From NCBI GenBank assembly GCA_963575745.1, contig CAUYUJ010000001.1:124001-188000 (forward strand): DNA of 64,000 bases. The letters are read 5' to 3'. Below, in pieces: positions 2,615-54,610 of the stretch (positions are counted from its first letter, which is position 1; each line of letters opens with the position of its first letter). A program made the translations under genes and the position numbers. The notes under the pieces are model-generated. The model did not search any database and was not told where the DNA came from. It saw only the letters and a list, made by a program, of their open reading frames with translations. This stretch comes from Prorocentrum cordatum. Its lineage: Eukaryota.

Positions 2615-2690
<76 letters not shown>

Positions 2691-6169: not shown

Positions 6170-6191
6170 TCCGTAGCCATTTTGGCTCAAG
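6170..6191 (+). other. Perfect genomic copy of the dinoflagellate spliced leader at the 5' end of a LINE
   Basis: TCCGTAGCCATTTTGGCTCAAG matches DCCGTAGCCATTTTGGCTCAAG at 22/22. It is followed by TT rather than an SL-RNA intron donor, so it is a retro-copied leader, not an SL RNA gene. Confidence 0.93.
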
Positions 6192-6313
6192 TTCCCAACG
6201 TCGCTCCCGCGCTAGGAGCTTGATTGCAGCCGAGGGAGGCAACCGACTTTCAGGCAGGGAGCTGCGCGCTGCCGCCTTTCTCGAGCCACGGCAGCAGCGT
6301 GCCGTCAGTGCAG

Positions 6314-22200: not shown

Positions 22201-22500
22201 AGGGCGCCCGTGTTGGCCTGTGAACGAGGGTGGCCTTGAGAGGCGACCGACTGCATCTCCAAGTTAACGCGTGGTTGGAGCATGTCGACCACGTGGCTGA
22301 GCGCACAACGCGCCCACGCGCGCGCGGGCGCGAGCTGTGAATTCTGTTGTGCCCACAATAGAAGGGCCGCTATGCTTGCCTGGAAACTCAAGCGGCCCCT
22401 CAGCGGTGGCCGAATGGATTTCCAAGTCAACATGGGGTTGTAGCACGTCGGCCAAGTGGCTCAGCGTACTAGGCGCGCGCGCGGGCGCGAGCTGTGCATT
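19280..22500. repeat. Tandem satellite of ~130 bp with (CG)n cores (family B)
   Basis: More than 20 degenerate copies of GTCGGCCAAGTGGCTCAGCGCACAACGCGCCCACGCGCGCGCGGGCGCGAGCTGTGAATTCTG...AATAGAAGGGCCGCCATGTTGGCCTGGAAACTCAAGTGGCCCC. Confidence 0.92.
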
Positions 22501-22799
22501 CGGCGCGCGGCGGCCGCGGGCCTTTCTGCGTGGGAAATACACGCAATATGCGAGCGCGGAAATGCAGCCGCACGCACTGTGGCCATGGGCCACTACGTAG
22601 GTAGGCGAACATACGGCTGCAAGGGGCAATGCCGCCGCGCGTTTGGGCGGGACACCATATTATGCGCGAGGGGAGAGCGCCGAGGCCATGCGCGGCCCGT
22701 GTTCAGCGCAGCCCGGTCGCCCCCGGCCTGGGGCCTGGCCCGGCAAGCAGCCCTGCCCATCCTGACCGGTGCCCAGCGGGCTGGCCCCTCGCCCACCCA

Positions 22800-22980
22800 C
22801 CTGAAGGAATTGACATGTTATAAGAGTTATCAATAGTTATAAGTAGGTTATAAGTATGTTGTAAGTAGGTTATAACAGGTTATAACATGTTATAATGTGT
22901 TGGCGCACTTATAAGTTTGCTAAGTCGGAGCCCTGAGTTAGCCCGAGTTATAAAAGTTAGTAACTCCGCTAACTTTTCAA
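22800..22980 (+). repeat. Left terminal inverted repeat and subterminal GTTATAA array
   Basis: GTTATAA or a one-mismatch variant at 22817, 22826, 22836, 22847, 22858, 22869, 22879, 22889 and 22947. Confidence 0.85.
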
Positions 22981-23194
22981 CATGGTTCTCACCATATCGA
23001 CATAATCATATGTCTTGCAGGGTGTACTCTTCAAAAAAAGAAGAATTTGATAATATTTTTGCAAGTGTTGCACTCATCATTGCGACTTCTCGCATATCAT
23101 ATCTACGCTGACCACAATTGCAATCGATGCAAATCCGCAGGTAGTGTTGCAACAATTGAGTTGCATGTTGTTTTTTTGGGCATGCCATGTTGAG

Positions 23195-23216
23195 TCCGTT
23201 GTCATTTGGGCTCCAG
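23195..23216 (+). other. Relic spliced leader upstream of ORF A
   Basis: TCCGTTGTCATTTGGGCTCCAG, 18/22 to DinoSL, ~65 nt before the ATG at 23281. Confidence 0.7.
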
Positions 23217-23280
23217 GGCATTTCGCGCGCATCATTTTGTGCTCACGAGTTGCAAGTTGCGTCTTGCATCCATCTGAGAC

Positions 23281-25665
23281 ATGCAGCCGCATGGAGCGGA
23301 TGCTAAGATTCTCAAATGCAAGGACGCAATGGACATTATTGAGAGGAAGTTCGACTCGCCTAAAGCAGAGGTGGTGGATTTGTACGAACAGGTCAAGGCG
23401 ATAGCTCGCCAACATGGTATGCTACTGACAGAGAAAATCAACAGTAAGTAAATGTACGTGAGCCCATGCAACAGATATGGCGACGGCGTCGTGCCGTGTG
23501 ACGTCACTGACTTGATCATTAAAATATTGGGAAATGGGTTCAGGCACGAGCATCGGTTGATGCCTACGTGTGCCGAGGTGCCCCCAGTGGGCACTGCTGA
23601 GTACCTCAAGATCAAAGGGTTTAACGACAAGATAATGGCCGATAGCGCAGGACAGCTGCCGTTCTACGATGATGGTGATGGTAAATATCAGAGTTACACA
23701 TGCGGTCATACATCGCAAGGTTTGCGATGCATCATACATGGCACGAACGTGCCCGAGACCAACCCAGAGCGGTTCAGCGACATAAGCCAGGACGGGAAGA
23801 TATCGTTGCAACGCCTCCAGCAATTCCAACCAATTTATGCTGATGCGGCTGTAAACGGTATCACATGGGACATCTTCAAATGGCAGTTTATCGAGGCGTT
23901 TCCTTTCGTTCCAGACCTTGTGCAAGAAGCGGGCAACGCAGGGCAGGCCGCTGCCAAGTGCGAGAGCAGGCTGGAAATCATGCTCAAGATTGCGCAGTAC
24001 GCGAAGAGCCTGAAGCAGAAATTAGAGCTGAATCCGGATGAGACGTTCCCATGGGATAAGGCCAGGCGCCAGGCGGGCAGGGGCGCAGTCTTCAAGCATG
24101 AGAAAGACCACATGGTGGACTATGTGAAGGAGATGTCAGGCGGACTGGGCAACCCAGCGTTTCTTCACGAGCTAAAGGACTTCAACAGGCACCTGGCCAG
24201 AGCGGCGATAGTAAAGTCAGATGTCGCGGCAGCCGTCGCGACTTGCAAGATCGCGAAGGAGGGGTCGGGGGTGCTATTCAAGCTCGCGTGCATCAAGGCT
24301 ATGCATGGCCCGAGCGACAAGTATAGGAAGGGCGACGAACAGACGCTACTGAAGCTCTCGGACGTCAATGTGTTGCAGAACGAACGCAAGGCGCAGATCG
24401 CGTTACAGGGCGATGAGTTGCTGCAGAAGATTCGCAAGCTTGCGATTGACTTCGAAATCGATCCATCGAGCGCTCGCTGGTCCAACATAGTCGGGCTCGC
24501 CGATGTTCGAGTTGCCCACTTCGTCTTCAACAAGCCCGACGAGAGCCGCGGGGTATACAAACAGATCACCGACATCGCAGTTGACGCTTGGAAAGCTATG
24601 GCTGCCAGCACTGGCAATAACAACGTTCGCTGCCCATGGAAGGCCAAGGCCGTCGCGCATGCACCACAGTGTGCTAGCAGCGTCTCCTCGACAGGTGTCA
24701 AGACCTTTGGCCAGCGTGGCGAGTGGGTGAACGTGTCCGAAACTTTGGATGTCAAAGGTTTCAAGGTGGGCGTGACGGTGTACAACCGCCAGGAGGGCGA
24801 TGAGTCTGTGTATGAGGTCAAGTCGATTGATGGGCAGAATGTGAAGATGCAGACGGGAGACGTAGAGCGCACCATAGATGCCGAGGACTTCATGCGAACC
24901 AAGTTCGCAATATACGACATCAAGAAAGAGGTAATCGACCAGTTCGACCAGTTCAGCCCATTGAATTGCATGGACTACCACTGGGGGGTCGAGGAAGCTC
25001 GGATCAAGATTGCACTCGACGAAGTCTATTCACAACATAGTGCTTGCCTCAAGCATATCACGGCGATTCATTCGCCAATCAAATATAAAGCGGCGTCAGT
25101 GAAGAAGGAGTTCAAGAAGGACGCCATCGGACTTGTTCCGTTGACGACAACCATATCGCTCAAGAAGGCGACGGATGAGATCAATATTGGCAACGTTTGC
25201 CTTAGGAAGTATACCGACCCTGCCAAGCATACCGATTACAACGTCGCGTTGATGGCCGCTGGCGGGTTCAGGCTCAAGCGTGAAGAGGGTGGGACTGGCA
25301 TTGGTGGTCTGAAGCGCGTGCCAGATCAGTACGGGGTGCCTTTCTGGTTGGTCGGCGTGTGCACCGCGAAGGAGAAGCCAAACTTGGCTGTGACATTTGT
25401 GACCGCCACGAACGGCATTAAGGTTCCCATCCTCAAAAACGCGGTCGAGCTCAAGAGCGGCGACAGGTTGCGCATGTCCGAGGACACAGCAAAGGCGCTT
25501 GCAAGGAAAGTTGCGTTGTCCGACGCCACGCCCGCCAAGCCCGCCAAGAAAAAAAGCAAAGACGCAGTGAGCCGCCCATTCGCCGCATTGCCGCGGCATT
25601 ACGCAGGGCGTTGGCGTCTCCCTCCGTATATGAACGCACCTTGTTGGATGGCGAAGACATACTGA
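23281..25665 (+). pseudogene. Transposon cargo ORF A, ~790 codons: putative ParB/Srx-like N-terminal domain and SET-like C-terminal motif, one in-frame TAA
   Basis: ATG at 23281 (MQPHGADAK...) is in frame with the 737-aa ORF across a TAA at 23449-23451. Motifs VSPCNRYGDGV..DV..LI..I...GF and SYTCGHTSQGLR; C-terminal PFWLV..PNL..VPILKNAVELKSGDRL. Intronless, complex globular sequence. Confidence 0.75.
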
Positions 25666-25755
25666 AATGCTTCACCCTGCGATGCGTCATCACACCATCG
25701 CATCGCATCATTCTGCGATGCAGCATCGCGCCAGTCTGCGACATCGTCGCAACGC

Positions 25756-25777
25756 ACCATAGCCGTTCTGGCTCAAT
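25756..25777 (+). other. Relic spliced leader upstream of ORF B
   Basis: ACCATAGCCGTTCTGGCTCAAT, 18/22 to DinoSL, ~42 nt before the ATG at 25819. Confidence 0.7.
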
Positions 25778-25818
25778 CGCTGGGGTATCACGCGGCCCAC
25801 GCTGCCCCGCACGTCTGC

Positions 25819-26667
25819 ATGTCAGCGTCTGTTTCCATGCGCACGGTGATCGAGGGCGGCGGGCTCAAGGAGCCGTGGATACCGCGGACTATTGTCCATA
25901 GCGGAGGTATTGCGTTCATCGAGGTATCCCTGATGGACAGGAGGCTCTTCCAGTTCGTCGACATCCAGAACCCAACAAACAGGAACGCCCCATTTGCCCA
26001 AAATCATTTCTTCAAAGAGTTGAAGGCCCTCCGAAACGCTGCATCGGACATTGCGATATGGGAGTACATGAAATCGCGAGACCCATTGCTGTCGGACCAG
26101 TCTGACCAAGACAAACTGATCAAGGCCTACAAGAAGAACATCGACGAGAGTGCTATGCCAGCATACGTTACGGTTCAGTTGCCAGAGGTTGAATTTAATG
26201 GTGGCGGCGTGGCCTTGAAGTGCGAGCCGATCGCAGTAAGATGCATATTTTCTGCATCAGCGATTAGCAAGGTACATGTGGAATGTACAGAGAGCGTACT
26301 GACTTACATCAGATGTGCTGCGCTGAAAGCAGCAGAGGACGATGGCACCGAGAAACAAAAGAGAGGACTGAGCGGAGTGCCAGGGGTCCGATGCGACAAG
26401 CGTCGCAGGGTAGTGTATGTCGTTGTGGAATCCCACAACTCGTCAAGGCGCATCTATCAAAAACCAGTGGAATGGAATGACACGTGTATTTTGCACTGCG
26501 CCCGCGAGCTACGCGACAAAGTGGTCGCGAAGGGCGAGGAGATAGGGGGTCACGAGCCCGATGCCGATCTTCTCCATGGGCTGAATTGTGCCGAGCATGC
26601 CGGGGGGGGGTGGACCCGAAGATCAACAGGGCGATGGCGAAGACGACAATGTCGATGCTGCGGGTGA
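25819..26667 (+). CDS. Transposon cargo ORF B (282 aa), unknown function, possible AP2-like motif near the C-terminus
   Basis: Complex ORF behind a relic SL. SGVPGVRCDKRRRVVYV resembles the start of AP2/integrase-type DNA-binding domains. The extreme C-terminus may be frameshifted at the G run near 26601-26610. Confidence 0.7.
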   Translation: MSASVSMRTVIEGGGLKEPWIPRTIVHSGGIAFIEVSLMDRRLFQFVDIQNPTNRNAPFAQNHFFKELKALRNAASDIAIWEYMKSRDPLLSDQSDQDKLIKAYKKNIDESAMPAYVTVQLPEVEFNGGGVALKCEPIAVRCIFSASAISKVHVECTESVLTYIRCAALKAAEDDGTEKQKRGLSGVPGVRCDKRRRVVYVVVESHNSSRRIYQKPVEWNDTCILHCARELRDKVVAKGEEIGGHEPDADLLHGLNCAEHAGGGWTRRSTGRWRRRQCRCCG

Positions 26668-27337
26668 TAGCGACGCCCAGGGCTGAGACGCCAGGCGCTG
26701 CGTCGGGCACGCACAGCGCGCCCACCCTTTCGACCTCCTATCTAGTCTCCCACCGTCGGCCCCGTCGTCCTTCCCACCCGCGGGGGGGGGGGAGGAGGGG
26801 GAGGGGGGGGGGCTCGTCGCCGTCGTTTTACACGCCCCCTCGTGCCACTCCTCGCCCGTTCGCATCCTAGATGCGCTCTTCAGGCAGACGTGCCGCCGCC
26901 ACCCCTCACCCCTGAATGTCCAACAAGGAGCCATCTGGGAACGACCTCTTATAGAGCGCCAACTCGTCCTGAGGGCCTGCACCTCCTGCTCCAGCCCCTC
27001 GACCTTCTGCGCTGCCTCCGTCTGCTGCTGTTGCTGTAGCGCTGCCTCCGTCTGCTGCCGCTGGTGCCGCTGCTCTGCGATCGTGCGCTGCTGCTCCCCC
27101 AACTCCGCGAGCAAGTGATCGTGCTGCTGACCGCGCAGCAAGAGATCGTCCTCCACATCGTCCACTCGTGCTAGCAACACTTGTGCAGCATTTACGTGCG
27201 TAAGCAAAGCCTTCTATCGGCAGGTGGAGGGGCGACGGCGGCGGCGACGACATCGACGACGACGAACTTAAGACGACGACGCCCGCCTCGCGAAGCTGCC
27301 GCATCGCGGCGAGTATGCCAGGGGCCTCTGGCGCCAT
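26623..27337 (-). CDS. Two-exon Gln-rich coiled-coil protein (cargo); 3' end uncertain
   Basis: Exon 1 at 27337-27211 (MAPEAPG...PIE) joins in frame across a 40-nt GC..AG intron (27210-27171) to ARVDDVEDDLLLRGQQHDHLLAELGEQQRTIAEQR...LEQEVQAL. Confidence 0.55.
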
Positions 27338-28359
27338 CGCAGCGCGGCTCTCGGACGACACCACGGGGGGATGTGCGGGGCCCGATCCGTCCTCGGGGGG
27401 GCTACGCGGGGCTCGCGTGTGAGCGCCAGCCGCTACGTACGAGCGCCCCGACCCCATCCCCATGAACCCTACACCCAACACGGCGATGCGGATGCTCCGC
27501 AGAGGCGACGTCGCGGGGTGGCAACGTCGCGGGGTGGGGGACTTGGGGGTGGCCGACTTGGGGGGGCCAGGAGCAAATGATTGGCATGGGGTTCGAATGG
27601 GAATGGGGTCGGGGGCACATTGTGCGTGATCTATGGGGGGCATGCAGTTTACTTCGCATACCATATATGCGAGCTCGTAGTTGGGCGTGCTGCTTATGGG
27701 GATACAGCCATCGCCATGGGTGTGAAAACCATCATCGTTGCACATGCGTTCAGCAACATTTGCTTGTGACGCAACTGTGCATGATTCTCATTATGGTGAC
27801 AATCGCATCTGCCACATCGTCGGCCGCACAATTGCCACTGTCATTACCACCGATACACACCGACTCGAACGTACATGTCATGTAAGAGACGTTAGCGTCA
27901 GCATCACAAATCACATTATGCGTATGCAAACTATTTCGCCACAGCCGTTGTGTTGTTATGTGCGCGCGACGCCGTGAGTTATTGATGTGGGTGTTGGACT
28001 AGCTTCGGTTAGGGCGAGATAATGTTTGGTATTTGTAATATCGTAGTTTGATGTCGAACGGCACAGTAGTGTAGAGCTTCGTAGGTTAAGGATTTCGGCT
28101 TTCGGGTGAGCACAGTACTGCAAGCTTTGTGTGGTCTGTATATGTGTAGAGTGCATCTAAGATGCACGAGGAACTATAAAGATCCGCGTCTCTCTCTCTC
28201 TCTCTCTCTCTCTTTCCGACGCCGTTGTGGCCCATGTGTTCAGCCACGCCCGCGGCGCGCGGGCCGTGGGTTCACGGCGCGGGGCCCGCGCCTCCACAGG
28301 GTGCTCGCCCCCCCCCGCCGCGCGGGGCCCCCGACGCCCGCCGCGGCCTCGCCCTGCAG

Positions 28360-29796
28360 ATGAGCGGCGGTGGCGACGACGCCACCGAGGTGGCAATGTT
28401 GCTCGCAGCGGCGAGCGAGATCCAGCAGCGACGGGAGAAGGTGGCGGAGGAGAAGCCGTCGCGGCTGCAGCCGACGTCCAAGAAGCGGCCGACCGCGCCG
28501 CGGACGGCTCCGCCAGAGCACGTCTTGGCGGCCGCCATGGCCTCCGCCGAGAAGAAGCGCAAGGCGATGTGCTGGTCGGCACAGGCTCGCGCGCAGACGT
28601 GGCGCGGCTCGGTGGCGGACTCGCTGCTCGAGAAGCTCAACCTCGCGCCGCCCATGCACCCGACGATGAACTCGATGAAGGACCTTCTCGAGTTCGAGGT
28701 CGACGAGCCCGAGGGCGGTGGCGACGACGCCGCGGGCGGCAGCGACGCGGTCGACGAGGGCGACGGCGACTACGAGGGCGCCATGGCGGATGAGTACGAA
28801 TGTGGCGACGCTGAGGGCGGTGGCTACGACGACAGCGCTGGCGAGAGCTACACCGCCGATGGCGACGCCGAGGGCTACGGCTACTACAGCAGTTGCCGTA
28901 AAAGCCGCCACTACTACGACTACGACGACAGCAGCGAGGGCGTTGGCGGCAAAGACAGCTACTACACCAAGGACGGCAACGACGGCCACACCAAGGACGG
29001 CTACTACGGCGGCCAAAACAAGGACGGCTACTACTACGGCCACAACAAGGACGGCTACTACGGCGGCCACACCAAGGGCGGCTACTACGGCAAGGACGGC
29101 TGGTGGGCCAAGGACGGCTACTACGGCCGTGAGAAGGGCGACGGCTACTATGGCCGCAAGGGCGACGGCTACTATGGCCACGAGAAGGGTGACGGCTACT
29201 ATGGCCACAAGGGCGACGGCTACTATGGCCACGAGAAGGGCGACGGCTACTATGGCCACGAGACGGGCGACGGCTACTACAGCCACGTGAAGGGCGACGA
29301 CTACTACGGCCACAAAGGCGACGGCTACAACGGCCAGGAGTGGCGTGGCCGCGACAAGGGCGACGGCTACTACGGCCACAAAGGCGACGGCTACAGCGGC
29401 CACGTGAAGGGCGACGGCTACAGCGGCCACGTGAAGGGCGACGGCTACTACAGCCACGAGAAGGGCGACGGCTACGACAGCCACGACAAGGGCGACGGCT
29501 ACTACGGCGGCCACAAGAAGGACGGCTACGGCGGCCACAAGAAGGACGGCTACGGCGGCCACGTGAAGGGCGACGGCAAGGACGGGGGCGGGGGCGACGG
29601 CCCCCGCCCCCGCGGGGGCAAGCACATCCGCCTCGCCAAAGCACTGGCCGTGCGGGAGCACCTGCAGGGCTTGCACGACCTGTCCGAGCAGGACCAGAAG
29701 TACGCGGCCTGGAGCCGCCGCACGCAGCCGCAGGTGTGGCTGAAGGCGGTCGCCGACTACGCTGCGGCGACCGCAGCGGGCTCAAGCTCCGTGTGA
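28360..29796 (+). CDS. Cargo ORF C (478 aa): acidic and Gly/Tyr/His/Asp tandem-repeat protein
   Basis: The frame stays open through ~20 variable-length KGDGYYGH(E/V) or KDGYYG units, with non-repetitive N- and C-termini. A weak relic SL (16/22) lies at 28215-28236. Confidence 0.7.
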   Translation: MSGGGDDATEVAMLLAAASEIQQRREKVAEEKPSRLQPTSKKRPTAPRTAPPEHVLAAAMASAEKKRKAMCWSAQARAQTWRGSVADSLLEKLNLAPPMHPTMNSMKDLLEFEVDEPEGGGDDAAGGSDAVDEGDGDYEGAMADEYECGDAEGGGYDDSAGESYTADGDAEGYGYYSSCRKSRHYYDYDDSSEGVGGKDSYYTKDGNDGHTKDGYYGGQNKDGYYYGHNKDGYYGGHTKGGYYGKDGWWAKDGYYGREKGDGYYGRKGDGYYGHEKGDGYYGHKGDGYYGHEKGDGYYGHETGDGYYSHVKGDDYYGHKGDGYNGQEWRGRDKGDGYYGHKGDGYSGHVKGDGYSGHVKGDGYYSHEKGDGYDSHDKGDGYYGGHKKDGYGGHKKDGYGGHVKGDGKDGGGGDGPRPRGGKHIRLAKALAVREHLQGLHDLSEQDQKYAAWSRRTQPQVWLKAVADYAAATAAGSSSV

Positions 29797-29820
29797 TCAC
29801 GGGGCACACGTCGGCGACCA

Positions 29821-29867
<47 letters not shown>

Positions 29868-30015
29868 GCGTTGTCGTCGTCGTCGTCGTCGCGTGGTCGG
29901 CGAGGTGTGCCCCGTCGGAAGGGGTTGAGGCTCCCACGGCGGCGACTCAGCACAGGAGTTGCCGCCGAAGCTGCGGGGGTGCACAGCAGCTGAGGGCTGC
30001 CACGAATACGGATTA

Positions 30016-30308
30016 AGAATCGTCGCAGAGGGTACCGCTGTCAAACGACACGGGTGTCGTCTTTGAGAATCTCAAAGACGACGTGCCGTCTTTGAGAATC
30101 TCAAAGACGACACGCGTGTCGTCTTTGAGAATCTCAAAGACGACAACATCTCTATTAGATTTAATATTACCAACGTGTCGTCTTTGAGAATCTCAAAGAC
30201 GACACGCGCGTCGTCTTTGAGAATCTCAAAGACGACAACGTGTCGTCTTTGAGAATCTCAAAGACGACGCGCGTGTCGTCTGACAGTGGTACCCTCTGCG
30301 ACGCTTCT
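30016..30308. promoter_or_regulatory. Central dyad array: six 27-bp palindromes around an AT-rich core, framed by 37-bp inverted arms
   Basis: GTCGTCTTTGAGA-A-TCTCAAAGACGAC at 30056, 30085 (1 mismatch), 30118, 30177, 30210 and 30242. AT-rich core at 30145-30176. Outer arms 30016-30052 and 30272-30308 match at 34/37. The structure is certain; the function is inferred. Confidence 0.85.
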
Positions 30309-30600
30309 CGGTCCACCTTCAGAGGTGTTCATCGCATCGGTCGTGAGGCCTTTGGACGATCGCTGAGCGACGCGTCGCTCCCGCTCAGCGTGATCGCTCC
30401 GCTTCTCTGAGCACTTTTCGGAGGCTCACGATCGACGGCGAAACGATCGACCTCCCCCCTCCTCCCTCTCATCCCTTCCTCCTCCTATTCCTCCTCCTCC
30501 TCCTCATCCTTTGCCTCCCCCTCCCCCTCCTCCTCCTCCTGCTTCCTCCTCATCCGCCTCCGCCTCCTCCAGTTCCATCCTCCTCCTCGTCCCCCTCAGC

Positions 30601-30760
30601 ATCCTGAGGTGTCCTGAGGTGTCCTGAGGTGTCCCGAGGTGTCCTGAGGTCTCCTGGGGTTGTCAGCTCAGAGATGCCCTGAGGTGTCCTGAGGCGCCCT
30701 GGTGTTGTCATCTCAGAGGTGTCCTGAGGTGTCCTGAGGTATCCTGAGGTGTCCTGAGGC
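30601..30760. repeat. 10-bp tandem repeat GTCCTGAGGT
   Basis: About 11 copies in two or three blocks. Confidence 0.9.
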
Positions 30761-30805
30761 GTTGCATTCGCCGTCGTCGTCGTCGGCGTCCGCCGTCGTC
30801 GTCGC

Positions 30806-30837
<32 letters not shown>

Positions 30838-30924
30838 TCCCGCATCGTCGTCGTCGCCGCCGCAGTCGTCGTCGTCGTCCGCCGCCTTCGTCGCCGCCGA
30901 CGTCGTCGCCGTCGCCGTTGTCGC

Positions 30925-30955
<31 letters not shown>

Positions 30956-31158
30956 GTCCTGCATCGTGGTCGTCGCCGCCGCAGTCGTCGTCGTCGTCCG
31001 CCGCCTTCGTCGCCGCCGACGTCGTCGCCGTCGCCGCCGTCGCCGCCGCCGCCGTCGCCGCCGTCGTCGTCGCCGTCGCCGCCGCCGCCGCCGCCGTCGC
31101 CGTCGCCGCCGTCGCCGTCGCCGCCGTTGCCCTTATCATCCGCATCGGCTGCGCCGTC

Positions 31159-31449
31159 TCACCGCCGCCCATCATCCCCGCAATCGCGACCCTCATGGTC
31201 CTCGCGAAGGTTCGCGACGCGGCCCTGGCCCTCGCGAATGTTCGCGATCGTGGCGACCTGGCTCGCGATAGTGGCGGCCTGGCTCTCGATCGTGGCCTTC
31301 TGAGCTTCGATCGTGGCGCCGATGCTCTGAATCTGCTCATGCCATTTGATGTAGTCATCGCGCTGCTTCAGGGCGCGATCAACCACGGAGACGATCACAC
31401 GGCGATGATCATCAGCCGACTCGAGCTGCTGGTTCATATCAGCAACCAT
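31159..31449 (-). CDS. Small heptad-repeat coiled-coil protein (cargo), possibly one exon of a longer gene
   Basis: MVADMNQQLES...IGATIEAQKATIESQAATIASQVATIANIRE shows clear 7-residue periodicity. Confidence 0.5.
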   Translation of the reverse strand: MVADMNQQLESADDHRRVIVSVVDRALKQRDDYIKWHEQIQSIGATIEAQKATIESQAATIASQVATIANIREGQGRVANLREDHEGRDCGDDGRR

Positions 31450-31760
31450 GCGGTCCGCCGTATCCTCGACGCGGCCGCTCCGCCACGATCCACCACCAGC
31501 ATAAGCCGATGACGAGCCGTCACCAATTGACGCCAATTCGGGCGGGGAGGTCGACGGTGGGTGGGCTGGGCTGATAACCGTTCTGCGCCAACATATACGG
31601 AGGATGGCGGGGAGGATGAGGACGAGGATACCAATGATGACGAGGACGGGGGCGGTGGAGATCACGCTGCTCAGACAGCGATCGCACACCGTCGACGGAT
31701 GCGATCATCGTCGCAGCGTTCTGGCACAGATCGCGCCCGTCTCTCTTCTCTATAGCCACA

Positions 31761-32358
31761 ATGCCGCGCATGCATGAAGATATCAAAGCACTCCGGGCCC
31801 TGCATCGCAATGAGGATATACTGTTCAGGAACCAGCAGCTTGACACCGCCATCAAGCACAAGGCCAACAGCCTCAAGCAGGCGAAGCAGATGGACCGCAA
31901 GGCGACCTTGTCGCCGTGCCGCGCGCTGTCGGGACACGCTTGCATATGCATGCAGATATGATATTGTTGTTTGGTGCGGTGTATGTACACTAGAAGAGCG
32001 GCGTGATATGATAGTTCTGGGCTAGGTTGTGGGGTGTGTCTGATGTTGTCGGCGTGATCCCGCCTGGTTGTGCGTCTCACGGCGGGCGCGGTGACGCCTA
32101 TCGCCACACCTATTCCCCCCCCCCCCCCTCCCCCCCACCATCCGACATGCCCCGCCCGTTCGGTGTGAGGTGATGCAGTGCTTCAAGGCGTACGAGAAGG
32201 CCAAGAAAAAGGCCGAGGACGCCGAGTACGCTTGGCTGCAAGCGTGTGAGCACGCCGTGGACTTGCATGGGCAGCACGATCGGGCAAGGAAGCTGGTAAT
32301 CGACACAGGGGGCTTGTACAGAGCACGGGGGCGCAAGGCCTTAGGCTTCGGCGCGTGA
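31761..32358 (+). CDS. Small helical protein, paralog 1 (2 exons: 31761-31901, 32170-32358; ~109 aa)
   Basis: Pyrimidine tract plus TAG before the ATG. Phase-0 AAG|GC...GAG|GTG intron. Exon 2 aligns with the neighbouring paralog. Confidence 0.6.
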
Positions 32359-32604
32359 GTGCGTGGATACGCAATTAGGTCCGAGTGTGTAAACACCGTT
32401 TCCCAAGAGTTGTGCCTGTCGCGGGGAGGGCGGGCGCTTCGCGCCATGCGCTAAGAAAACAATGCCTGGATCGAGCTCGTCGGGGCAGCGTTGCAACCAT
32501 TGCAAATCTGGGGTCAATTGTTAGGGGGGAGTGGGGGATGTGTGGCTTATCGGCTCAGTTGCAATAGGTTTTGCACAAGTTATCGTTTCAGTTGTGGAGG
32601 GGCA

Positions 32605-33046
32605 ATGGGCAAGTCCCGCAAGACGATCGCGATGGATGCCCAGGCTCGCCAGGACTGGAAGGAGGACAAACATGTCAGGCTGACCAACGCTAACATCACC
32701 AAGGTAGCATGCAAGGCCGAGTTCTTGTGTGCATCGAAGAAGGTGGCCTCGTGTGTGAAAACACGTAACACTCATTGCAATGACATTAGCCGCCGCACTA
32801 GAAATTGCAATTGCATTTGAATTTGGTGGCATTGAATGCCTGTGCCCTGTATATGTGTGTTTTGTTTTAGCGCACGATTCCCAGGTTCTCGAGAAGTTCA
32901 AGAAGTTCGAGGCCGCCAAGAAGAAGATGGAGGAGGCCAAGAGCGAGTGGATGGAGTCGATCGGTGATCGCATCGATGCCCACGCTGAGTGGGAGAACGC
33001 GTGCGAGCAGCACGCGAGCATCAAATCAGAGCGCATGCCGCGCTGA
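32605..33046 (+). CDS. Small helical protein, paralog 2 (2 exons: 32605-32742, 32885-33046; ~99 aa)
   Basis: Phase-0 AAG|GT...CAG|GTT intron at the same position as in paralog 1. Confidence 0.62.
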
Positions 33047-33362
33047 TGGGGCCGTGCCGGGCGAGGCTTCGCAAGTGCGATGATGTGTTCAGATTCGCAA
33101 TGGTCCACGTCAAATGATCAGTGGTCACGCCAATCATGCCTTACATCTGATTAGCATGCCGAGCAAGGGGGTGGACCCATCCAAGTCAGTGTTTGTCAAG
33201 CTGCGCCCAGCCGCGGCGACGACGATGGCTGACCCCCCCCCCGCCCCCCGAGAGGACTACCACCCCCCCGAGAGGACTACCAACCCTCGCGCTGTTGGTT
33301 TGTTCGACACCCCTGTTGACCTTTGCCTCATCGCCAAGCGTGCACGCGTCATCGTCGTGGGC

Positions 33363-33384
33363 TCCGTAACCAGTTTGGCTCAAA
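33363..33384 (+). other. Relic spliced leader upstream of ORF D
   Basis: TCCGTAACCAGTTTGGCTCAAA, 19/22 to DinoSL, ~44 nt before the ATG at 33428. Confidence 0.8.
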
Positions 33385-33427
33385 CAGTTTTGCGAACTTA
33401 CATATCGCTTTCTGCTGCGTAGCAGCA

Positions 33428-34891
33428 ATGACGTCGATGCGTGATGTGCTGGCCGAACTCAATCATATGATTGATTGGCATCATACCCAAGTCGGCTGCG
33501 GACTCGGCGCAAAGACATGCGCCGACAACCAGATGCAGTCGCTGTTGTCGAGAGTGCGATCCTTCGGAACGATCAGCACTGACGACGCCACGCTCTTGGT
33601 GGGCACAATTCGGGACAATGCGCTCCCAGACTGGTCCCCTGATCAGATTGCAGAAATCTGCACGGCGGTAGGGCAGAAGACGGGTGTGCTGACCAGCACC
33701 GCAGATAAGAAGTGGCAGAAGGTAACTGCATTCTCGCGCTTCCTTTCGGCGTCTGAGGCGACCAAGTTAAAGAGCGGCGACATGTCGCAGAAGGCGATGA
33801 TCGCCATGGTGTGCAAGAGGGCCCATGCGATCGGCATGTACACTCTGTCCGAGGGGAGCAAGGGTCAACTCGCAGCGGTGGTATCGTCCCAACTCACTGG
33901 CGTTACCAACGACATGTGGTACGACATCCTGGTGCAGGTCAAGCTGAAGCTGGCTACCATGAAGGCACGAGACTGGAAACACAGAACTATATGGGAATAC
34001 GATTCTCCAGACTCCCTCGAGAGCGAATCGTGGTACTATACCGCGTACCCCGAGGGGGGCCCGCCACGCGGGCAGGACTGGTACATCGACGAGCCCGACT
34101 TCGTGCGACTGAGCAGTCGCTTGATGAAGGGCGGCAAGCAAGCGGCCAAGCAAGTGCGGGACGACCGCCCCGCCCCGCCGCCGCCGACCGCCCCGCCTCC
34201 CGCCATTTGCGACTTCGGCGCCTACCAATCCATGTACGGGACGATGAACGCGTACCATATGTACGCTCATCCAGGAATGGTGCCTCCGCCAGGGATGGTG
34301 CCTGGCCAATCGTCACACTCTTGGTCGCCTCCGCCAGGGATGATGCCGAAGCCCAAAGCGCCACCGCAAGATGCGCCCTCACCACAGGAGGCGCCCCCGC
34401 CTGCGGCCCCACCAGCCGCGGGAGGAATGCCCGCCCCGCTCGGCGACTTATCTGATGAGGAGGCAGCGCTTCGCAAGACAATGCGCAAGCGTAAGGAGGC
34501 CGTGGCCCTGAGTAAACGTCCAGCAGCTGCTGGGGGCGATGCCGATGGCGTCGAGGGCGCCGACGACGATGGCGACGAACTCGCCGACGAGGAGGGGGGC
34601 CCGCCGAAGAAGGTCATGAAGGGCGCCCCGCCGAAGAAGGCCATGAAGGTGGTCATGCGGAGGCCCTCGGCGAAGCCGAGGCCCACGGCGAAGCCGAAGC
34701 CGCTGCCCAAGGCCCCGCTGACGGGGGCCCCGAAGATCGAGTACCGCGCGGGGTATATACTCACGCAGCCAGACAAGTCCCAGTACAGGGCTGTCCTGGG
34801 GCGGTCCGACAGGCGCATCCGCTGGGACACGGGCAGCACGCGCCAGGAGGCTTTCACCAAGGCGATGAAGTTCATAGACGAGCGCTCGTAG
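33428..34891 (+). CDS. Cargo/accessory ORF D (487 aa): globular N-terminus, Pro-rich linker, Lys/Pro-rich tract, possible AP2-like C-terminal DNA-binding domain
   Basis: Intact ORF directly upstream of the transposase. KRPAA and KKVMK/KKAMK motifs; C-terminal YRAGYILTQPDKSQYRAVLGRSDRRIRW..TRQEAFTKAMKFID (three strands plus a helix). Confidence 0.78.
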   Translation: MTSMRDVLAELNHMIDWHHTQVGCGLGAKTCADNQMQSLLSRVRSFGTISTDDATLLVGTIRDNALPDWSPDQIAEICTAVGQKTGVLTSTADKKWQKVTAFSRFLSASEATKLKSGDMSQKAMIAMVCKRAHAIGMYTLSEGSKGQLAAVVSSQLTGVTNDMWYDILVQVKLKLATMKARDWKHRTIWEYDSPDSLESESWYYTAYPEGGPPRGQDWYIDEPDFVRLSSRLMKGGKQAAKQVRDDRPAPPPPTAPPPAICDFGAYQSMYGTMNAYHMYAHPGMVPPPGMVPGQSSHSWSPPPGMMPKPKAPPQDAPSPQEAPPPAAPPAAGGMPAPLGDLSDEEAALRKTMRKRKEAVALSKRPAAAGGDADGVEGADDDGDELADEEGGPPKKVMKGAPPKKAMKVVMRRPSAKPRPTAKPKPLPKAPLTGAPKIEYRAGYILTQPDKSQYRAVLGRSDRRIRWDTGSTRQEAFTKAMKFIDERS

Positions 34892-35089
34892 CCGCTTGTC
34901 TGCTCTGCTCATCGCCGATCGCGACTTCTCGCGATTTGTTTCGCTGTGCTATAACGCTTGTGTGCATTGTTCATGCATGCCTGCATGGTGCAATGTAAAA
35001 TGCAAGTCGTTGTTCCATCGTATGCGAGGGGCACCCGTCGCACAATCCTCTGTTGCGATTGCAGATATCGCATTCATGCTACCATCACT

Positions 35090-35110
35090 CAGTAGCAGTT
35101 TTGGCTCAAG
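35090..35110 (+). other. Relic spliced leader upstream of the transposase
   Basis: CAGTAGCAGTTTTGGCTCAAG, 18/21 to DinoSL, ending 2 nt before the ATG at 35113. Confidence 0.82.
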
Positions 35111-35112
35111 CC

Positions 35113-37206
35113 ATGTCGGCGGGGCCACCGAAGCGTCGCAAGACAGACGCCGAAGCACTGATTGAGTTACACAGAGGCCCATATGTATCTGAGCGGAGTC
35201 TTACATACATTCTCAAGTACGTACGAGATAATGGTATACCAGGTAACATTTCGCGTTATGCGCAGTGCAGCGCAAGGCAGAAATTAATCGGTGCCGAATC
35301 GAACCAGTACGGTGACGTGCTTGTCGGCATTGATATGCCATTGAACAGCGGTAAGAGCTTCAAGAACTGGGCGTGCGCCCCTGGCCCGTACTTGTACTCG
35401 ACGGCGAAACGGAGTAAGGGGTTCAGAGATCTGTTGCGCCGCCAGCTCGCCAAGCACCCGTGCTCCCTAGCATCCCCATGGCGCATCTGCTTATATTTCG
35501 ACGGTATCTCACCGCGTGACCCGTTGGCCAAGGGCAAAGACCACCGAGGGGTGGATGTTGTATACTGGTCGTTTCTAGAGTTCGATGAGTTTTTGCTGGA
35601 CGAAGACGCATGGCTCGTGCTCAGCACCGCTCGGGTTTCCAAAGTGAGGGACATGCCTGGAGGGATCGGGCAGTCGGTTGCAATGACGTGCAACGAGCTC
35701 ATGTTCAATACGTCTGGCGGGGTGAACTTTCGTACGACTGGAGTTATCTTGGACGTGTCAGAAGCAGGGGATGCCACAAGGCACGCGACTATAATCGCGA
35801 GGTTGGGCTGCACTGTGGGCGACGAAGAAGCCCTCCGTGAATTCCACATGAACAAAGGGCACGCGGGCACCAAACCGTGTGCCATCTGCAGGAACGTGCT
35901 CAACCAGAAGTTCGACTATGCGTCGCACGACACGTCTGGTACATTTATATCGGACGCATGCCTCGACAGAAGCAAACGCGTCGTCAACACAGACGCGCAG
36001 ATCGTTGCCATCTTGGAAAGGCTACGCCCCGACTGGGAGAGGCACGACCGCGGTGAGATTAGCGACAACAAGTGGAAGGAGATCACGTAGCTAAAGGGTT
36101 GGAGCTTTCATCCGACGCACGTTGCCTTGGACGCCAACCTCGCCTACGGTGTCATGTCGCTCCTTTGCTTCGATTGGATGCACATCTATAGCGTCAATGG
36201 CATCGTAGCTAAAGAAGTGAAAGCTTTCACTGAGAACAAGGCGGTTTGCAAACTCTGCAGCGCCGAAGATCTCAACGACTATCTTTCAAACTGGACATGG
36301 CCCCACAAGCTTCATGCCGCCAATGCCGTGTTCGCACAGGGCGAACTACAAGCAAACGCATCGCAGGAGCTGTCTATGATTCCCGTGCTGGCGCACTTCA
36401 TCAGGCAAGTCATTGCCAAGCTGCCTGATGCAGGCGCCATCTCGGGTCATATTGCAAGTTTACTTGCACTGTGCGATGCCATTGATATGGTTATTCTCTC
36501 GTCCAGGGGCCTCGCGACTGCACGTGAGCTGGATATCGCCGTGATGAAGCATTTGGAGCTACACACGCGCACATACGGGACTAACTATTGGGTTTACAAA
36601 CACCATATGGCAACTCATCTTGCCGACATGTACTTCAAATTCGGACCCTTGAACTGCTTCGTCCACGAGCGGAAGCACAAAGTTTGCAAGAAGTTTGCAA
36701 AGGACCATCTGTGCATGAGGACCCCCGAGAAGTCATTGATAATGCAGCTCACGGCGCAGCACAGTTACGACATGGAGCACTTCGGCATCTCAACGACGCT
36801 GGTCGACCCCGTAGCCGCCACCAAGAAGCTCATGGGCGTCTTGAAGGAGTTGCGTCCGCAAACGCAAACGGCATCATCGAGCCTCACGGCGTGGACCAAG
36901 TACGGGCCGATCCATAGAGGAGACATATGCTTGGAGGGACGTGCTGCAGGACATGCAGCCGTGCAGGTCTGGTTCCATGTAGATTGTGACACAGAGACTG
37001 CGCCCTCAGGGCCTCTATGCTTAGTCTTGGAATTGCAGACTCGGCGCGTGCACAGCGCAGATTACTATTCTAGGTACTCCATAGACGAAGATAATAATCC
37101 CGTGCTCATTCCTTTGGACTCGCTGAGGCACCCTGTGATTAACAGGCGTCTCGGCGATGCAACCACTTGCATTTGGCCAGTTGAGTATCGCAAATTGGAA
37201 TGCTGA
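35113..37206 (+). pseudogene. CMC-type (EnSpm/CACTA/Plavaka-like) DDE transposase, 697 codons, one in-frame TAG at 36088-36090
   Basis: ORFs 35053..36090 and 36127..37206 share a frame. Motifs LYFDGISPRDPL, VYWSF, VGDEEAL, KGHAGTKPCAIC, DWMH....G, KHHMATHL and GPLNCFVHERKHK occur in the order typical of this superfamily. Confidence 0.87.
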
Positions 37207-37359
37207 CGCGTTTGCGATGTAGAAGTATACATCTTCACACCAATGAATACATCTTCAAAACATCCCGCAATAAACACAACATCGAAATTGAAACAACATT
37301 GAACGCCCCCAAATCAAGTATATGTTAGCCGAACAACTATCATGATATCCGAAATAAAT

Positions 37360-37438
37360 CAACATGCTAACTTTTATAAATGAGTTATAACTAAGTTATA
37401 ACTCCGCCTAACAGTTACTAGCTTCAAACGCCTTCAGG
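37360..37438 (-). repeat. Right subterminal repeats and terminal inverted repeat
   Basis: CTAACTTTTATAA, GTTATAAC at 37384 and 37395, TAACTCCGC as at the left end, and terminal CCTTCAGG. Confidence 0.85.
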
Positions 37439-37444
37439 CAATAG

Positions 37445-37985
37445 CTCGGCTGGTGACCAGCCGGTAGCCCGGCCAGTAAGTCCGCGAACGCGGCGGGCAA
37501 CCCTGCCGGCAACTCCACGAACCCGGCCGATAACTACGAACCCGGCCGGTGACCCGGCCCGGCCGGTAGCCCGGCCGGCAGCCCGGCTGTTAATTGCGCG
37601 CCCGGCCGGTAACCCAGCTGTCAGCCCGGCTGTTAATTCCCAGCCCGGCCGGCATCCCGGCCGGTAGCCCGGCTGGTGGCCCGGCCCTTAGCTTGGCCTT
37701 GCAGCGCATTCTGTAGCGGAGCTACAGCGCCGCTACAGAACGCCGCAGACGGCCGGCCCGGCAGCCCGGCTGTAGCTCCGCGCACCCGGCCGGTAGTTTG
37801 GCTGTCAATTCCCGCGCGCCCGGCCAGTAACTCCGCGCACCCTGCCGGTAATTCGGCGATTTGGGTTGGTAACCTGGCTGGGAATTCGGCGAACCCGGCC
37901 GGTAATTGCGCGAAATCGGCCGGTGGCCCGGCTGGAAATTTTGCGCACGCGGCGGGCCCCGCAGCCGGGAATGTCGCGGGTTAAC
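37445..37985. repeat. CCGGCCGG-rich degenerate tandem repeat
   Basis: Dozens of CCCGGCCGGTA/CCCGGCTG units. Confidence 0.85.
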
Positions 37986-38109
37986 CGCAGGAGGTCCCCC
38001 CCCCCCGCCCCCCCGATTTCCTTGGGACGAAAACAAGGCCCCGATGCCCCTGGCCCGCCCCCCGTGGATTCTTTTCCCGTGATTAGCCGTTTGGGCGAAA
38101 TCCTCTTCG

Positions 38110-54358: not shown

Positions 54359-54407
<49 letters not shown>

Positions 54408-54492
54408 TTGATGATGATGTTGATGTTGATGATGATGATGATGATGTTGATGATGTTGATGATGTTGATGATGTTGACGATGATGGTGATGG

Positions 54493-54524
<32 letters not shown>

Positions 54525-54578
54525 GTGATGATGGTGATGATGGTGATGATGGTGGTGCCCAGTTGATGAGGATAATGT

Positions 54579-54610
<32 letters not shown>

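What the first reader, a model, noticed from the sequence alone, without database searches (positions are those of the whole stretch)
22800..37438. Large multi-gene dinoflagellate CMC transposon with a ParB-like protein, putative DNA-binding accessory genes and a central palindrome hub
Seen: a 14,639-bp unit with 8-bp TIRs, a CA duplication, subterminal repeats, a transposase at the right end and about 8 tightly packed, mostly intronless genes, in a window that otherwise has no intact gene. Known: EnSpm/CACTA elements usually encode a transposase plus one or a few accessory DNA-binding proteins, and some CMC groups make 2-bp TSDs. Inference: this is a complex transposon whose cargo (ParB-like protein, AP2-like proteins, coiled coils, low-complexity protein) may form a dedicated machine acting on its own ends and central array. 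I know of no described eukaryotic transposon with this organisation.
Basis: partly seen in the sequence, partly recalled or inferred. Interest (0 to 1): 0.9.

Follow-up and report, generated by a model that had tools for sequence, protein, structure and literature searches.

The report
Mobile multi-gene RAG1-like dinoflagellate transposon
A 14.6-kb piece of DNA in a dinoflagellate genome is a genuine jumping gene whose cutting enzyme folds like the RAG1 and Transib enzymes and which carries several unexplained passenger genes, each marked by an old spliced-leader sequence.

Summary
Window 22800-37438 is a discrete 14,639-bp insertion. It has 8-bp inverted ends (CCTGAAGG/CCTTCAGG), a 2-bp CA duplication and GTTATAA subterminal repeats. 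Contigs from 4 of 4 public runs join 22797 directly to 37439, leaving one CA: an exact empty site.

The right-end gene (35113-37206) is a transposase. An AlphaFold model (pLDDT 95) matches RAG1, the amphioxus RAG1-like protein BbRAGL and the moth Transib transposase HzTransib (Z 14-17). Its conserved residues follow the order D..D-x18-CxxC..HxxxH..E, the hallmark of the CACTA/Mirage/Chapaev/Transib (CMCT) clade. No Pfam family matches, and the termini are CC..GG rather than CA..TG. I read it as a new lineage within a known kind.

The window copy is decayed: there are nonsense codons in gene A and in the transposase, and a frameshift. Near-identical copies in public data are intact.

Genes A, G and the transposase have 33-60%-identical relatives elsewhere. 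The ParB-like call for gene A has weak fold support (Z 5.3-6.3). The AP2-like calls have none. The central palindrome is real, but its role is untested.

New here: four plus-strand genes each follow a relict dinoflagellate spliced leader. Conserved linkage of the cargo to the transposase in diverged copies could not be tested.

The parts
22798..22799 (.). left copy of the 2-bp target-site duplication (CA)
   Evidence: the empty-site joint leaves one CA ('both=2')
22800..22807 (+). left 8-bp terminal inverted repeat CCTGAAGG
   Evidence: the boundary coincides with the joint
22817..22953 (.). left subterminal GTTATAA repeat array (9 matches)
23196..23216 (+). relict DinoSL (4 mismatches of 21), 85 nt before the gene A start
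23281..25570 (+). gene A (762 aa in the intact relative P0014). Weak ParB/Srx-like N-terminal domain and a small beta-barrel at residues 482-548. The window copy has a TAA at 23449-51 and a 1-nt frameshift near 25549.
25757..25777 (+). relict DinoSL (4 mismatches), 62 nt before the gene B ATG
25819..26667 (+). gene B (ORF of about 282 aa). Coding-type GC3 runs only to about 26300. There is a 1-nt difference from the runs at 26604. No homologue search was possible.
26623..27787 (-). candidate gene C: two overlapping minus-strand ORFs (a coiled-coil-like 196 aa and a 293 aa). Weak coding signal. Contains low-complexity tracts with very high depth in the runs.
28180..29796 (+). gene D: 538-codon ORF with GDGYYGH-type 27-nt repeats and GC3 of 0.86-0.98. 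Low-complexity protein.
30016..30308 (.). central palindrome with six 27-nt palindromic units (starting at 30056, 30085, 30118, 30177, 30210, 30242), lying between the convergent genes D and E
30603..30762 (+). array of 10-nt CCTGAGGTGT units (10 of the 13 window matches at <=1 mismatch); the unit resembles the terminus
30838..32182 (-). gene E region. Minus-strand ORFs 31523-32182 and 31162-31704 (coiled-coil-like), and a D/G-rich tail ORF 30838-31158 that lies after an in-frame stop.
32025..33117 (-). candidate gene F: minus-strand ORF pieces in different frames. The runs carry 2 extra nt at 32766. Weak.
33364..33384 (+). relict DinoSL (3 mismatches), 64 nt before the gene G ATG
33428..34891 (+). 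gene G (487 aa): conserved N-terminal domain, Pro/Ala-rich linker, and a conserved C-terminal module of about 50 aa. Intact in the window.
35090..35110 (+). relict DinoSL (3 mismatches), ending 2 nt before the transposase ATG. The same relic is read through in relatives P0003, P0004 and P0005.
35113..37206 (+). transposase gene H (697 codons). RAG1/Transib-like DDE core with D130, D237, C256, C259, H498, H502, E519 and a BAH-like C-terminal domain. The window copy has a TAG at 36088-90 where P0002 has Gln.
37384..37402 (.). right subterminal GTTATAA repeats (4 matches)
37431..37438 (-). right 8-bp terminal inverted repeat (CCTTCAGG on the + strand)
37439..37440 (.). right copy of the 2-bp target-site duplication (CA)

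Best explanation
Window 22800-37438 is one decayed copy of a cut-and-paste DNA transposon of a Prorocentrum-like dinoflagellate.

Shown:
- The whole 14,639 bp is present here and absent, to the base, from the same site in four public data sets. The filled site has CA on both sides and the empty site has one CA.
- The right-end gene encodes a DDE enzyme with a RAG1/Transib-type core.

Inferred mechanism:
- The transposase recognises the 8-bp ends and probably the GTTATAA subterminal repeats.
- It pairs the two ends and cuts with the triad D130/D237/E519, supported by a Cys2-His2 metal site (C256, C259, H498, H502).
- It inserts with a 2-bp stagger.
- By analogy with RAG1/Transib, which is an analogy and not a test, it may leave hairpins on the flanking DNA.

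The enzyme belongs to the CACTA/Mirage/Chapaev/Transib (CMCT) clade but to none of its described families.

The element also carries five to seven other ORFs. Genes A, B, G and the transposase each sit behind a relict DinoSL. I infer two things from this. These genes passed through trans-spliced mRNA, which would explain why they lack introns. The relics may also now supply the trans-splice acceptors that let tightly packed genes be expressed in a dinoflagellate.

Whether genes A and G help transposition (binding ends, repeats or the palindrome) or are passengers is open.
For: Mobility and boundaries:
- The joint 22797->37439 is seen in 4 of 4 runs.
- The TIRs and the CA are read. GTTATAA is 13 of 13 at the ends.

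Transposase:
- 12 relatives, one of them 98% identical and intact.
- 6,848 representative clusters at E<=1e-3.
- Model pLDDT 95, pTM 0.92.
- Foldseek gives 47 hits at E<=1e-3. All listed rows through rank 47 are RAG1, BbRAGL or HzTransib; the next, the P element transposase, is at 3.4e-2.
- VIA-align: RAG1 Z 16.8 (450 aligned, rmsd 5.3), BbRAGL 14.4, HzTransib 14.3, P element 10.5, Hermes 9.1.
- Across 91 sequences D130, D237, C256, H498, H502 and E519 are invariant and C259 is >=90%.
- D130 ends strand 123-132, D237 follows strand 229-236, and E519 lies in helix 517-530.
- Nearest named Atlas clusters carry Plavaka (9 hits, 0.93) and Transposase_21 (6 hits, 0.91).

Decay of this copy.

Relict DinoSL: 4 hits at <=4 mismatches in the element, each 23-85 nt upstream of an ATG on the same strand. 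Only the exact copy at 6171 lies elsewhere. Shuffles give 0-2 hits even at <=6 mismatches. The DinoSL sequence is as printed in PMC9651163 (passage).
Against: - No sequence-level match to any Pfam transposase family, or to RAG1/Transib in the PDB, even with a 91-sequence profile at E<=10.
- Termini are CC..GG, not the CA..TG 'in most cases' of the clade.
- Only one insertion was seen, so TSD length and target preference rest on n=1.
- The empty-site contigs differ from the window flanks by about 2-3% (for example 10 of 395 nt). They may therefore come from another strain or from a paralogous copy of this repeat-rich flank, rather than from a recent pre-insertion allele.
- The inserted copy differs by about 1% from the copy in the runs and carries disabling changes, so the insertion is not very recent. 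Alternatively, some 1-nt indels may be assembly errors.
- Residue-level equivalence with the RAG1 catalytic and zinc residues was not computed. It rests on motif order and on my recall of RAG1 numbering.
- A distant relative (L001, 27% identity) has no detectable cargo homologue within 10 kb upstream.
Confidence: 0.8

Rival explanations
1. Integral accessory set. Genes A, B, G and others are conserved parts of this transposon lineage. They act with the transposase on the subterminal repeats and the central palindrome, as TnpA does in En/Spm or RAG2 does with RAG1.
For: - Genes A, G and the transposase all have relatives at similar intermediate distances in the same kinds of source. A: 97, 60, 60, 52, 46, 40, 33%. 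Transposase: 98, 59, 58, 57, 52, 47, 38%. G: 81, 42, 39%.
- The near-identical copy in the runs keeps A and the transposase intact.
- Gene A has weak ParB/Srx-fold matches.
- Gene G has a conserved C-terminal module rich in Arg, Tyr and Trp.
- The relict DinoSL position is conserved in relatives of the transposase and of G.
Against: - No direct linkage was seen in any diverged copy. The listed contig lengths of A, G and transposase cluster members never coincide, although the lists are incomplete: for example, 15 of 73 members are shown.
- L001 has the transposase relative but no cargo homologue by tblastn.
- No DNA-binding family was detected by Pfam.
Confidence: 0.35
2. Passenger capture. 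A simple transposon (the transposase, perhaps with G) picked up unrelated retrogenes and low-complexity fragments. Most of its length is then cargo without a role in transposition.
For: - Each plus-strand gene has a relict DinoSL, the mark of retroposed mRNA (background passages in PMC3229502).
- Gene D has a very different third-position GC (0.86-0.98, against about 0.7 for A and the transposase) and is made of 27-nt repeats.
- Genes C, E and F are fragmentary and low-complexity.
- Some internal tracts are hugely repeated in the runs (bins 26328-27409 and 31738-32278).
Against: - The transposase itself has the same relic, conserved in 57-59%-identical relatives. The relic is therefore old and not specific to captured genes.
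- Genes A and G match no known host family.
Confidence: 0.4
3. Not a transposition. The 'empty site' is a 14.6-kb deletion or a paralogous repeat copy, and the TIR is chance.
For: - The flanks are satellite-like.
- The empty-site contigs differ from the window flanks by 2-3%.
- The 8-mer occurs 8 times in the window.
Against: - The joint coincides exactly with an 8-bp inverted pair, a 2-bp direct repeat and end-specific subterminal repeats (13 of 13).
- The segment encodes a RAG1/Transib-fold DDE enzyme.
Confidence: 0.03
4. An integrated virus-like or other large mobile element that merely uses a DDE enzyme as its integrase.
For: The size (14.6 kb), many ORFs without known families, and a central palindrome.
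Against: - No capsid, polymerase or packaging family among the 11 ORFs.
- No relative of the transposase, A or G in IMG/VR contigs: 0 of 21, 0 of 8 and 0 of 21 candidate stretches.
- The TIR and 2-bp TSD are typical of cut-and-paste elements.
Confidence: 0.04

Closest known systems
Transib transposase / RAG1 / ProtoRAG (BbRAGL)
   Same: - The closest solved folds: Z 14.3-16.8 over about 400-460 residues.
- The same order of two Asp, CxxC, HxxxH and Glu (PMC12730594 passages).
   Different: - No detectable sequence similarity.
- The TSD is 2 bp, not 5 bp (the Transib value is recalled), and the termini are not heptamer-like.
- There is an extra BAH-like C-terminal domain (Z 8.6-10.1 to ZMET2, DNMT1 and ORC1 BAH domains).
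- No RAG2-like partner was identified.
CMC superfamily: EnSpm/CACTA, Mirage, Chapaev; also Plavaka, ESTA, Lanisha (the CMCT clade of PMC12730594)
   Same: [quoted passage not shown]
- A TSD within 2-5 bp.
- Subterminal short repeats, as in En/Spm (recalled).
- More than one gene.
- Nearest named Atlas clusters carry Plavaka or Transposase_21.
- PlavakaA makes 2-bp TSDs.
   Different: - No Pfam Transposase_21 or Plavaka hit in 0 of 11 ORFs, in the 65 relatives or in the 10 members of A1 scanned.
- Termini are CC..GG rather than CA..TG, TGT..ACA or CATCA..TGATG.
- 14.6 kb with six to eight ORFs.
Fungal TET/JBP-carrying DNA transposons (PMC12730594)
   Same: Cut-and-paste elements, some of them from the CMCT clade, that carry one or two extra protein genes which move with the transposase (passages).
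   Different: The cargo here is unrelated. No TET/JBP or any other Pfam family was found. The cargo is more numerous and is organised around a central palindrome.
Dinoflagellate retrogenes with relict spliced leaders (Slamovits and Keeling model, as described in PMC3229502)
   Same: Genes preceded by a degenerate DinoSL and lacking introns.
   Different: Here four such genes, including the transposase, lie inside one DNA transposon. The relic position is conserved among diverged family members.

Membership tests
TIR cut-and-paste DNA transposon | terminal inverted repeats flanked by a target-site duplication, with an empty site lacking the element and one TSD copy | tested here: met
   8-bp TIR, CA/CA, and the joint 22797->37439 in 4 of 4 runs
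DDE transposase (RNase H-like fold) | catalytic Asp, Asp, Glu on an RNase H-like core | tested here: met
   D130, D237 and E519 are invariant in 91 sequences and sit at the strand and helix positions expected. Fold matches to RAG1, Transib, P element, Hermes and ISCth4. Catalysis itself was not tested.
[quoted passage not shown] | [quoted passage not shown] | tested here: met
   D237-x18-C256-x2-C259 ... H498-x3-H502 ... E519; definition from PMC12730594 passages
CMCT clade | TSD of 2 to 5 bp | tested here: met
   2 bp, from one insertion only
CMCT clade | 5'-CA..TG-3' termini ('in most cases') | tested here: not met
   termini are CC..GG
EnSpm/CACTA (Pfam Transposase_21) and Plavaka (PF18759) | significant match to the family profile | tested here: not met
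   no hit even at E<=10 for the 10 members of A1, and none in 65 further relatives. Only language-model neighbours at 0.91-0.93, which are a lead.
Transib superfamily | 5-bp TSD and RSS-like CAC termini (recalled), and sequence similarity to Transib/RAG1 | tested here: not met
   2-bp TSD and CC termini. No sequence hit to PDB RAG1/Transib chains. The fold is similar.
Placement among CMCT lineages by phylogeny | clustering with reference transposases of one lineage | not testable with these tools
ParB/Srx fold (gene A, residues about 27-222) | fold match and ParBc-type profile match | tested here: inconclusive
   PadC Z 6.3 (97 aligned), ParB-CDP Z 6.3 (96), SerK Z 5.7 (96), pNOB8 ParB-N Z 5.3 (101). 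All are below the tool's noise mark of about 8. Model pLDDT is 62. No Pfam hit in 16 members.
AP2/ERF-like DNA-binding domain (genes B and G) | match to the AP2 profile, or a three-strand-plus-helix fold | tested here: inconclusive
   no Pfam family at E<=10 for the two short segments or for the G relatives.
BAH domain (transposase residues 559-686) | BAH-type beta-barrel fold | tested here: met
   ZMET2 Z 10.1 (115 aligned, rmsd 3.6), DNMT1 BAH1 9.1, ORC1 BAH 8.6. No Pfam BAH hit. Function not tested.
Conserved multi-gene transposon family | the same cargo genes linked to the transposase inside TIRs in diverged copies | not testable with these tools

The most novel reading that the evidence does not exclude
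Dinoflagellates harbour a large, so far undescribed lineage of RAG1/Transib-like (CMCT) transposons. It counts thousands of 50%-identity clusters. At least one branch of it travels as a polycistron-style package: the transposase (with a chromatin-reader-like BAH domain), a ParB/Srx-like protein and other accessory genes. Each gene is expressed through spliced-leader trans-splicing at a conserved relict-SL acceptor, and the package is organised around a palindromic protein-binding array. The family is still mobile, because intact copies and an empty site coexist in public data.
Probability: 0.3. Interest if true: 0.78.

Novelty: new variant of a known kind. Interest (0 to 1): 0.62.

Why it matters
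- Dinoflagellate genomes are huge and repeat-rich, yet their DNA transposons are barely described. Seven of my eight full-text searches covered dinoflagellates or relatives with CACTA, EnSpm, Transib, Plavaka, DinoSL plus transposase, and TIR/TSD; one search covered the transposon families alone. None listed a paper describing such an element.
- The enzyme has a RAG1/Transib-type core and forms a very large family in an alveolate. This widens the known range of the clade that gave rise to V(D)J recombination.
- Relict spliced leaders sit before every well-supported plus-strand gene, the transposase included. This links DNA transposition with the mRNA-recycling habit of these genomes and suggests how a multi-gene element can be expressed there.
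- Public data hold intact near-identical copies and an empty site. The family may therefore be active, and it could be tried as an insertion tool in organisms that resist transformation (title and abstract of PMC6380556, search listing only).

Tried and rejected
- Own-genome searches with both ends were impossible because no genome is held.
- Self-BLAST found no second copy in the window.
- Pfam gave nothing for 11 ORFs, for transposase relatives, for gene A relatives, or for G relatives and the two 'AP2-like' segments.
- PDB sequence searches gave only chance-level rows for gene A, the A2, A3 and A4 profiles, and gene B.
- The Atlas gave no usable hit for gene A.
- Foldseek gave no significant match for the gene A model.
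- IMG/VR scans found no relative of the transposase, A or G.
- The metagenome scan gave three distant transposase loci (25-28% identity) without cargo homologues.
- Matching contig lengths between A, G and transposase cluster members, to infer shared contigs, found no coincidence. The lists were incomplete.
- Complex prediction for the transposase with the gene G N-terminal domain returned 'no answer' (score 0.00). It says nothing either way.
- No RNA holder was listed among the sequencing runs.
- Rfam found nothing in the window.
- I first took D354 (FDWMH) for the second catalytic Asp. I rejected this because the CxxC would then lie before it, and because D237 is invariant and sits after strand 229-236.
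- Element contig depths (for example 127.9 in X1) are within 2-fold of the empty-site contig (72.5). That hints at low copy number, but the tool warns that depth is not copy number, so I make no claim.
- Weak joints (22871->24520, 32136->33229, 36079->36236) have sides of 20-30 nt or touch poly-C tracts. I did not interpret them.

Full report
1. What is in the sequence

CCTGAAGG lies at 22800-22807 and its reverse complement at 37431-37438. CA precedes the first and follows the second. The unit is 14,639 bp. The inverted match stops after 8 bp.

All 13 GTTATAA matches in the 64-kb window lie within about 155 nt of the two ends, against 0.8 expected. The 8-mer itself occurs 8 times in the window against 3.3 expected, so it would not be convincing alone. 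No second copy lies in the window.

The element sits between a 166-nt satellite and short GC-rich repeats.

2. Proof of mobility

No genome is held for this window. I therefore searched public runs with the right 10 kb and laid the Logan contigs of four holders, from four studies, on 22000-38200.

In 4 of 4 runs a contig joins 22797 directly to 37439. The tool reports it as 'skips 14641, ends CA..GG, both=2', with 106, 56, 162 and 255 nt matching on the shorter side. That is an empty site with one CA. It fixes the boundaries and the 2-bp duplication to the base.

At 22760 and 37533 the empty-site contig is the only contig covering the flank in these runs, so the filled junction was not seen there. 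The same runs do hold the element's interior at about 99% identity; for example, one contig has 16 differences in 2,255 nt.

Caveats:
- The empty-site contigs differ from the window flanks by 2-3%.
- The flank is repetitive.
- Contigs drop rare variants.
- Only one insertion was examined.

3. The host

An exact 21-of-21 DinoSL lies at 6171-6191 (sequence as printed in PMC9651163). Two relatives of the element's proteins are NCBI 'unnamed protein product, partial [Prorocentrum cordatum]'. [quoted passage not shown]

4. The transposase

The ORF 35113-37206 has an in-frame TAG at codon 326. I read it through with X.

Relatives:
- The read-through protein finds 12 relatives among 8,000 scored candidates.
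- The best relative (P0002, from a Logan contig, 98% identical, 697 aa) has Gln at that codon.
- A profile search over 1.84 billion representatives gives 6,848 clusters at E<=1e-3 and 1,393 at E<=1e-30.
- No Pfam family matches: not the ORFs, not 65 of the 150 listed relatives (I took the lower-scoring part of the list and left out short ones; one unrelated sub-threshold row), and not the 10 members of A1 even at E<=10.

Structure:
- I aligned 91 sequences: 9 and 82 of the 150, chosen by eye for near-full length.
- The model of P0002 built on that alignment has pLDDT 95 and pTM 0.92.
- Foldseek against the PDB returns 47 hits at E<=1e-3. Every listed row through rank 47 is RAG1, amphioxus BbRAGL or HzTransib; the P element transposase follows at 3.4e-2.
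- VIA-align gives RAG1 Z 16.8 (450 residues, rmsd 5.3, model 29-564 against RAG1 478-1007), BbRAGL 14.4, HzTransib 14.3, P element 10.5 and Hermes 9.1.

Catalytic and metal-binding residues:
- Invariant in the 91 sequences are D130, D237, C256, H498, H502 and E519. C259 and D354 are >=90% conserved.
- D130 ends strand 123-132, D237 follows strand 229-236, and E519 lies in helix 517-530.
- The order is D..D-x18-CxxC..HxxxH..E. [quoted passage not shown] That paper calls the group the CMCT clade and adds that it makes 2-5 bp TSDs and mostly has CA..TG termini.
- From memory, the spacing also resembles RAG1 (D600, D708, C727, C730, H937, H942, E962). I could not compute the residue equivalence.

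Other evidence:
- The Atlas's nearest named clusters carry Plavaka (9 hits, 0.93) and Transposase_21 (6 hits, 0.91). This is a lead and not a test.
- Residues 559-686 match BAH domains: ZMET2 Z 10.1, DNMT1 9.1, ORC1 8.6.

Conclusion for the enzyme: it works like, and belongs with, the CMCT clade. It fails the profile tests for EnSpm and Plavaka and the TSD and termini features of Transib, and its CC..GG termini are atypical.

5. The other genes

Third-position GC supports coding in:
- A (23281-25570, +)
- B (25819 to about 26300 and beyond, +)
- D (28180-29796, +, GC3 up to 0.98)
- E (31162-32182, -)
- G (33428-34891, +)
- the transposase

Genes C and F are weak.

Gene A:
- It has 13 relatives. 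The 97%-identical P0014 (762 aa) shows that the true start is the ATG at 23281.
- The window has TAA where P0014 has Tyr; all four runs read T at 23451.
- The window also carries one extra base near 25549 that shifts the C-terminus.
- Its model is poor: pLDDT 62, built from 16 sequences. Foldseek finds nothing significant.
- VIA-align places four ParB/Srx-fold chains on residues about 27-222: PadC Z 6.3, ParB-CDP 6.3, SerK 5.7 and pNOB8 ParB-N 5.3, with 96-101 residues aligned. It places SH3/KOW-like barrels on 482-548. All of these are under the tool's noise mark.

Gene G:
- It has three relatives.
- It has a conserved N-terminal domain, a Pro/Ala linker and a conserved C-terminal module of about 50 residues.
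- No AP2 or other Pfam family appears.

6. Spliced-leader relics

At <=4 mismatches of 21, the plus strand of the window has five DinoSL-like sites. One is the exact copy at 6171. The other four are in the element, at 23196, 25757, 33364 and 35090. Each lies 23-85 nt upstream of the start of A, B, G or the transposase. Twenty shuffles give 0-2 hits even at <=6 mismatches.

Upstream read-through in relatives shows the same relic just before the start codon in P0003, P0004 and P0005 (57-59% identical transposases) and at the start of P0244 (a G relative). The relic is therefore old.

Relict leaders mark mRNA that was reverse-transcribed and re-integrated (PMC3229502, passages). That would explain why these genes lack introns. 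I infer, without a test, that the AG inside each relic now serves as a trans-splice acceptor. This would allow packed genes to be expressed.

7. The centre

Between the convergent genes D and E lies a 293-bp palindrome with six 27-nt palindromic units. As single-stranded DNA it folds at -143.9 kcal/mol, z = -23.8. A 10-nt CCTGAGGTGT array resembling the terminus follows it. Their roles are unknown. They could be a protein-binding array, a bidirectional terminator or a foldback insertion.

8. Linkage of the cargo

This remains open:
- A distant transposase locus (L001, 27% identity) shows no cargo homologue within 10 kb upstream.
- L001 does have an end-like cluster of GTTTAGC-type repeats 3.5 kb downstream of the gene, with no partner cluster upstream.
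- Contig lengths of cluster members gave no shared contig.
- The complex prediction gave no answer.

9. Literature

Eight full-text searches listed no paper describing such an element in dinoflagellates. I read passages only, in PMC11453091, PMC10666404, PMC12130899, PMC12730594, 10.1101/2021.09.26.461848, PMC3229502 and PMC9651163. I did not open supplements. Repbase reports such as the one on Lanisha are not in the library.

10. Verdict

This is a real, polymorphic but decayed copy of a large DNA transposon from a new lineage of the CMCT clade. Its accessory genes have unproven roles.

Noticed in passing
window 6171-7162: An exact 21-of-21 DinoSL follows a (GGA)n tract and is not followed by GT. 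An ORF lies downstream (6224-7162, GC3 0.80, no Pfam family). It looks like a recent retrogene, so the window outside the element is not entirely gene-free.
   Followed up: partly
window 35113-37206, protein residues 559-686: The transposase ends in a BAH-like beta-barrel (Z 8.6-10.1 to ZMET2, DNMT1 and ORC1 BAH domains). This is a chromatin-reader fold, in an organism with unusual chromatin.
   Followed up: partly
L001 15116-15280: A distant transposase relative (27% identity, GC 43%) has a cluster of GTTTAGC/GTTTAAC/GTTGTAAC repeats 3.5 kb downstream of the gene. Eleven of 20 motif hits fall in one 250-nt bin, much like a subterminal array. No partner cluster lies within 10 kb upstream, so that element may also be large.
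   Followed up: partly
protein P0022 (NCBI, Prorocentrum cordatum, 1080 aa): A gene model that joins a gene A-like stretch (92% identical over 39% of A) to sub-threshold Helitron_like_N and REP matches. It is probably a chimeric model over a decayed copy lying beside a Helitron fragment.
   Followed up: no
window 22840 (run X4): One contig matches from 22840 inward but carries 40 unrelated letters before it. This is possibly a copy with a different or rearranged left end.
   Followed up: no
window 26328-27409 and 31738-32278: Summed contig depth is hundreds to thousands of times higher than in neighbouring bins (up to 513,530 in X2), with poly-G/C and (CGA)n loose ends. These are simple tracts that are very abundant in the genome.
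   Followed up: no
window 31159-31161: The coiled-coil ORF 31162-31704 (-) is separated by a single in-frame stop from a D/G-rich ORF (30838-31158). This is either the natural end or another nonsense change.
   Followed up: no
window 564-2873, 5005-5482, 12223-12578, 14974-16241, 54359-55327, 58609-59458: Long degenerate trinucleotide arrays (CGA, GAG, AGG, GGA, CTC, GAT, CAT) fill much of the window. Satellites of 77, 154 and 166-167 nt lie at 16904-17751 and 19429-22496.
   Followed up: no
window 22000-38200 against runs X1-X4: Differences between the window and the runs are mostly transitions. In more cases the window has C/G where the runs have T/A (for example 48+39 in X1) than the reverse (24+13). 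The direction of change is unexplained.
   Followed up: no
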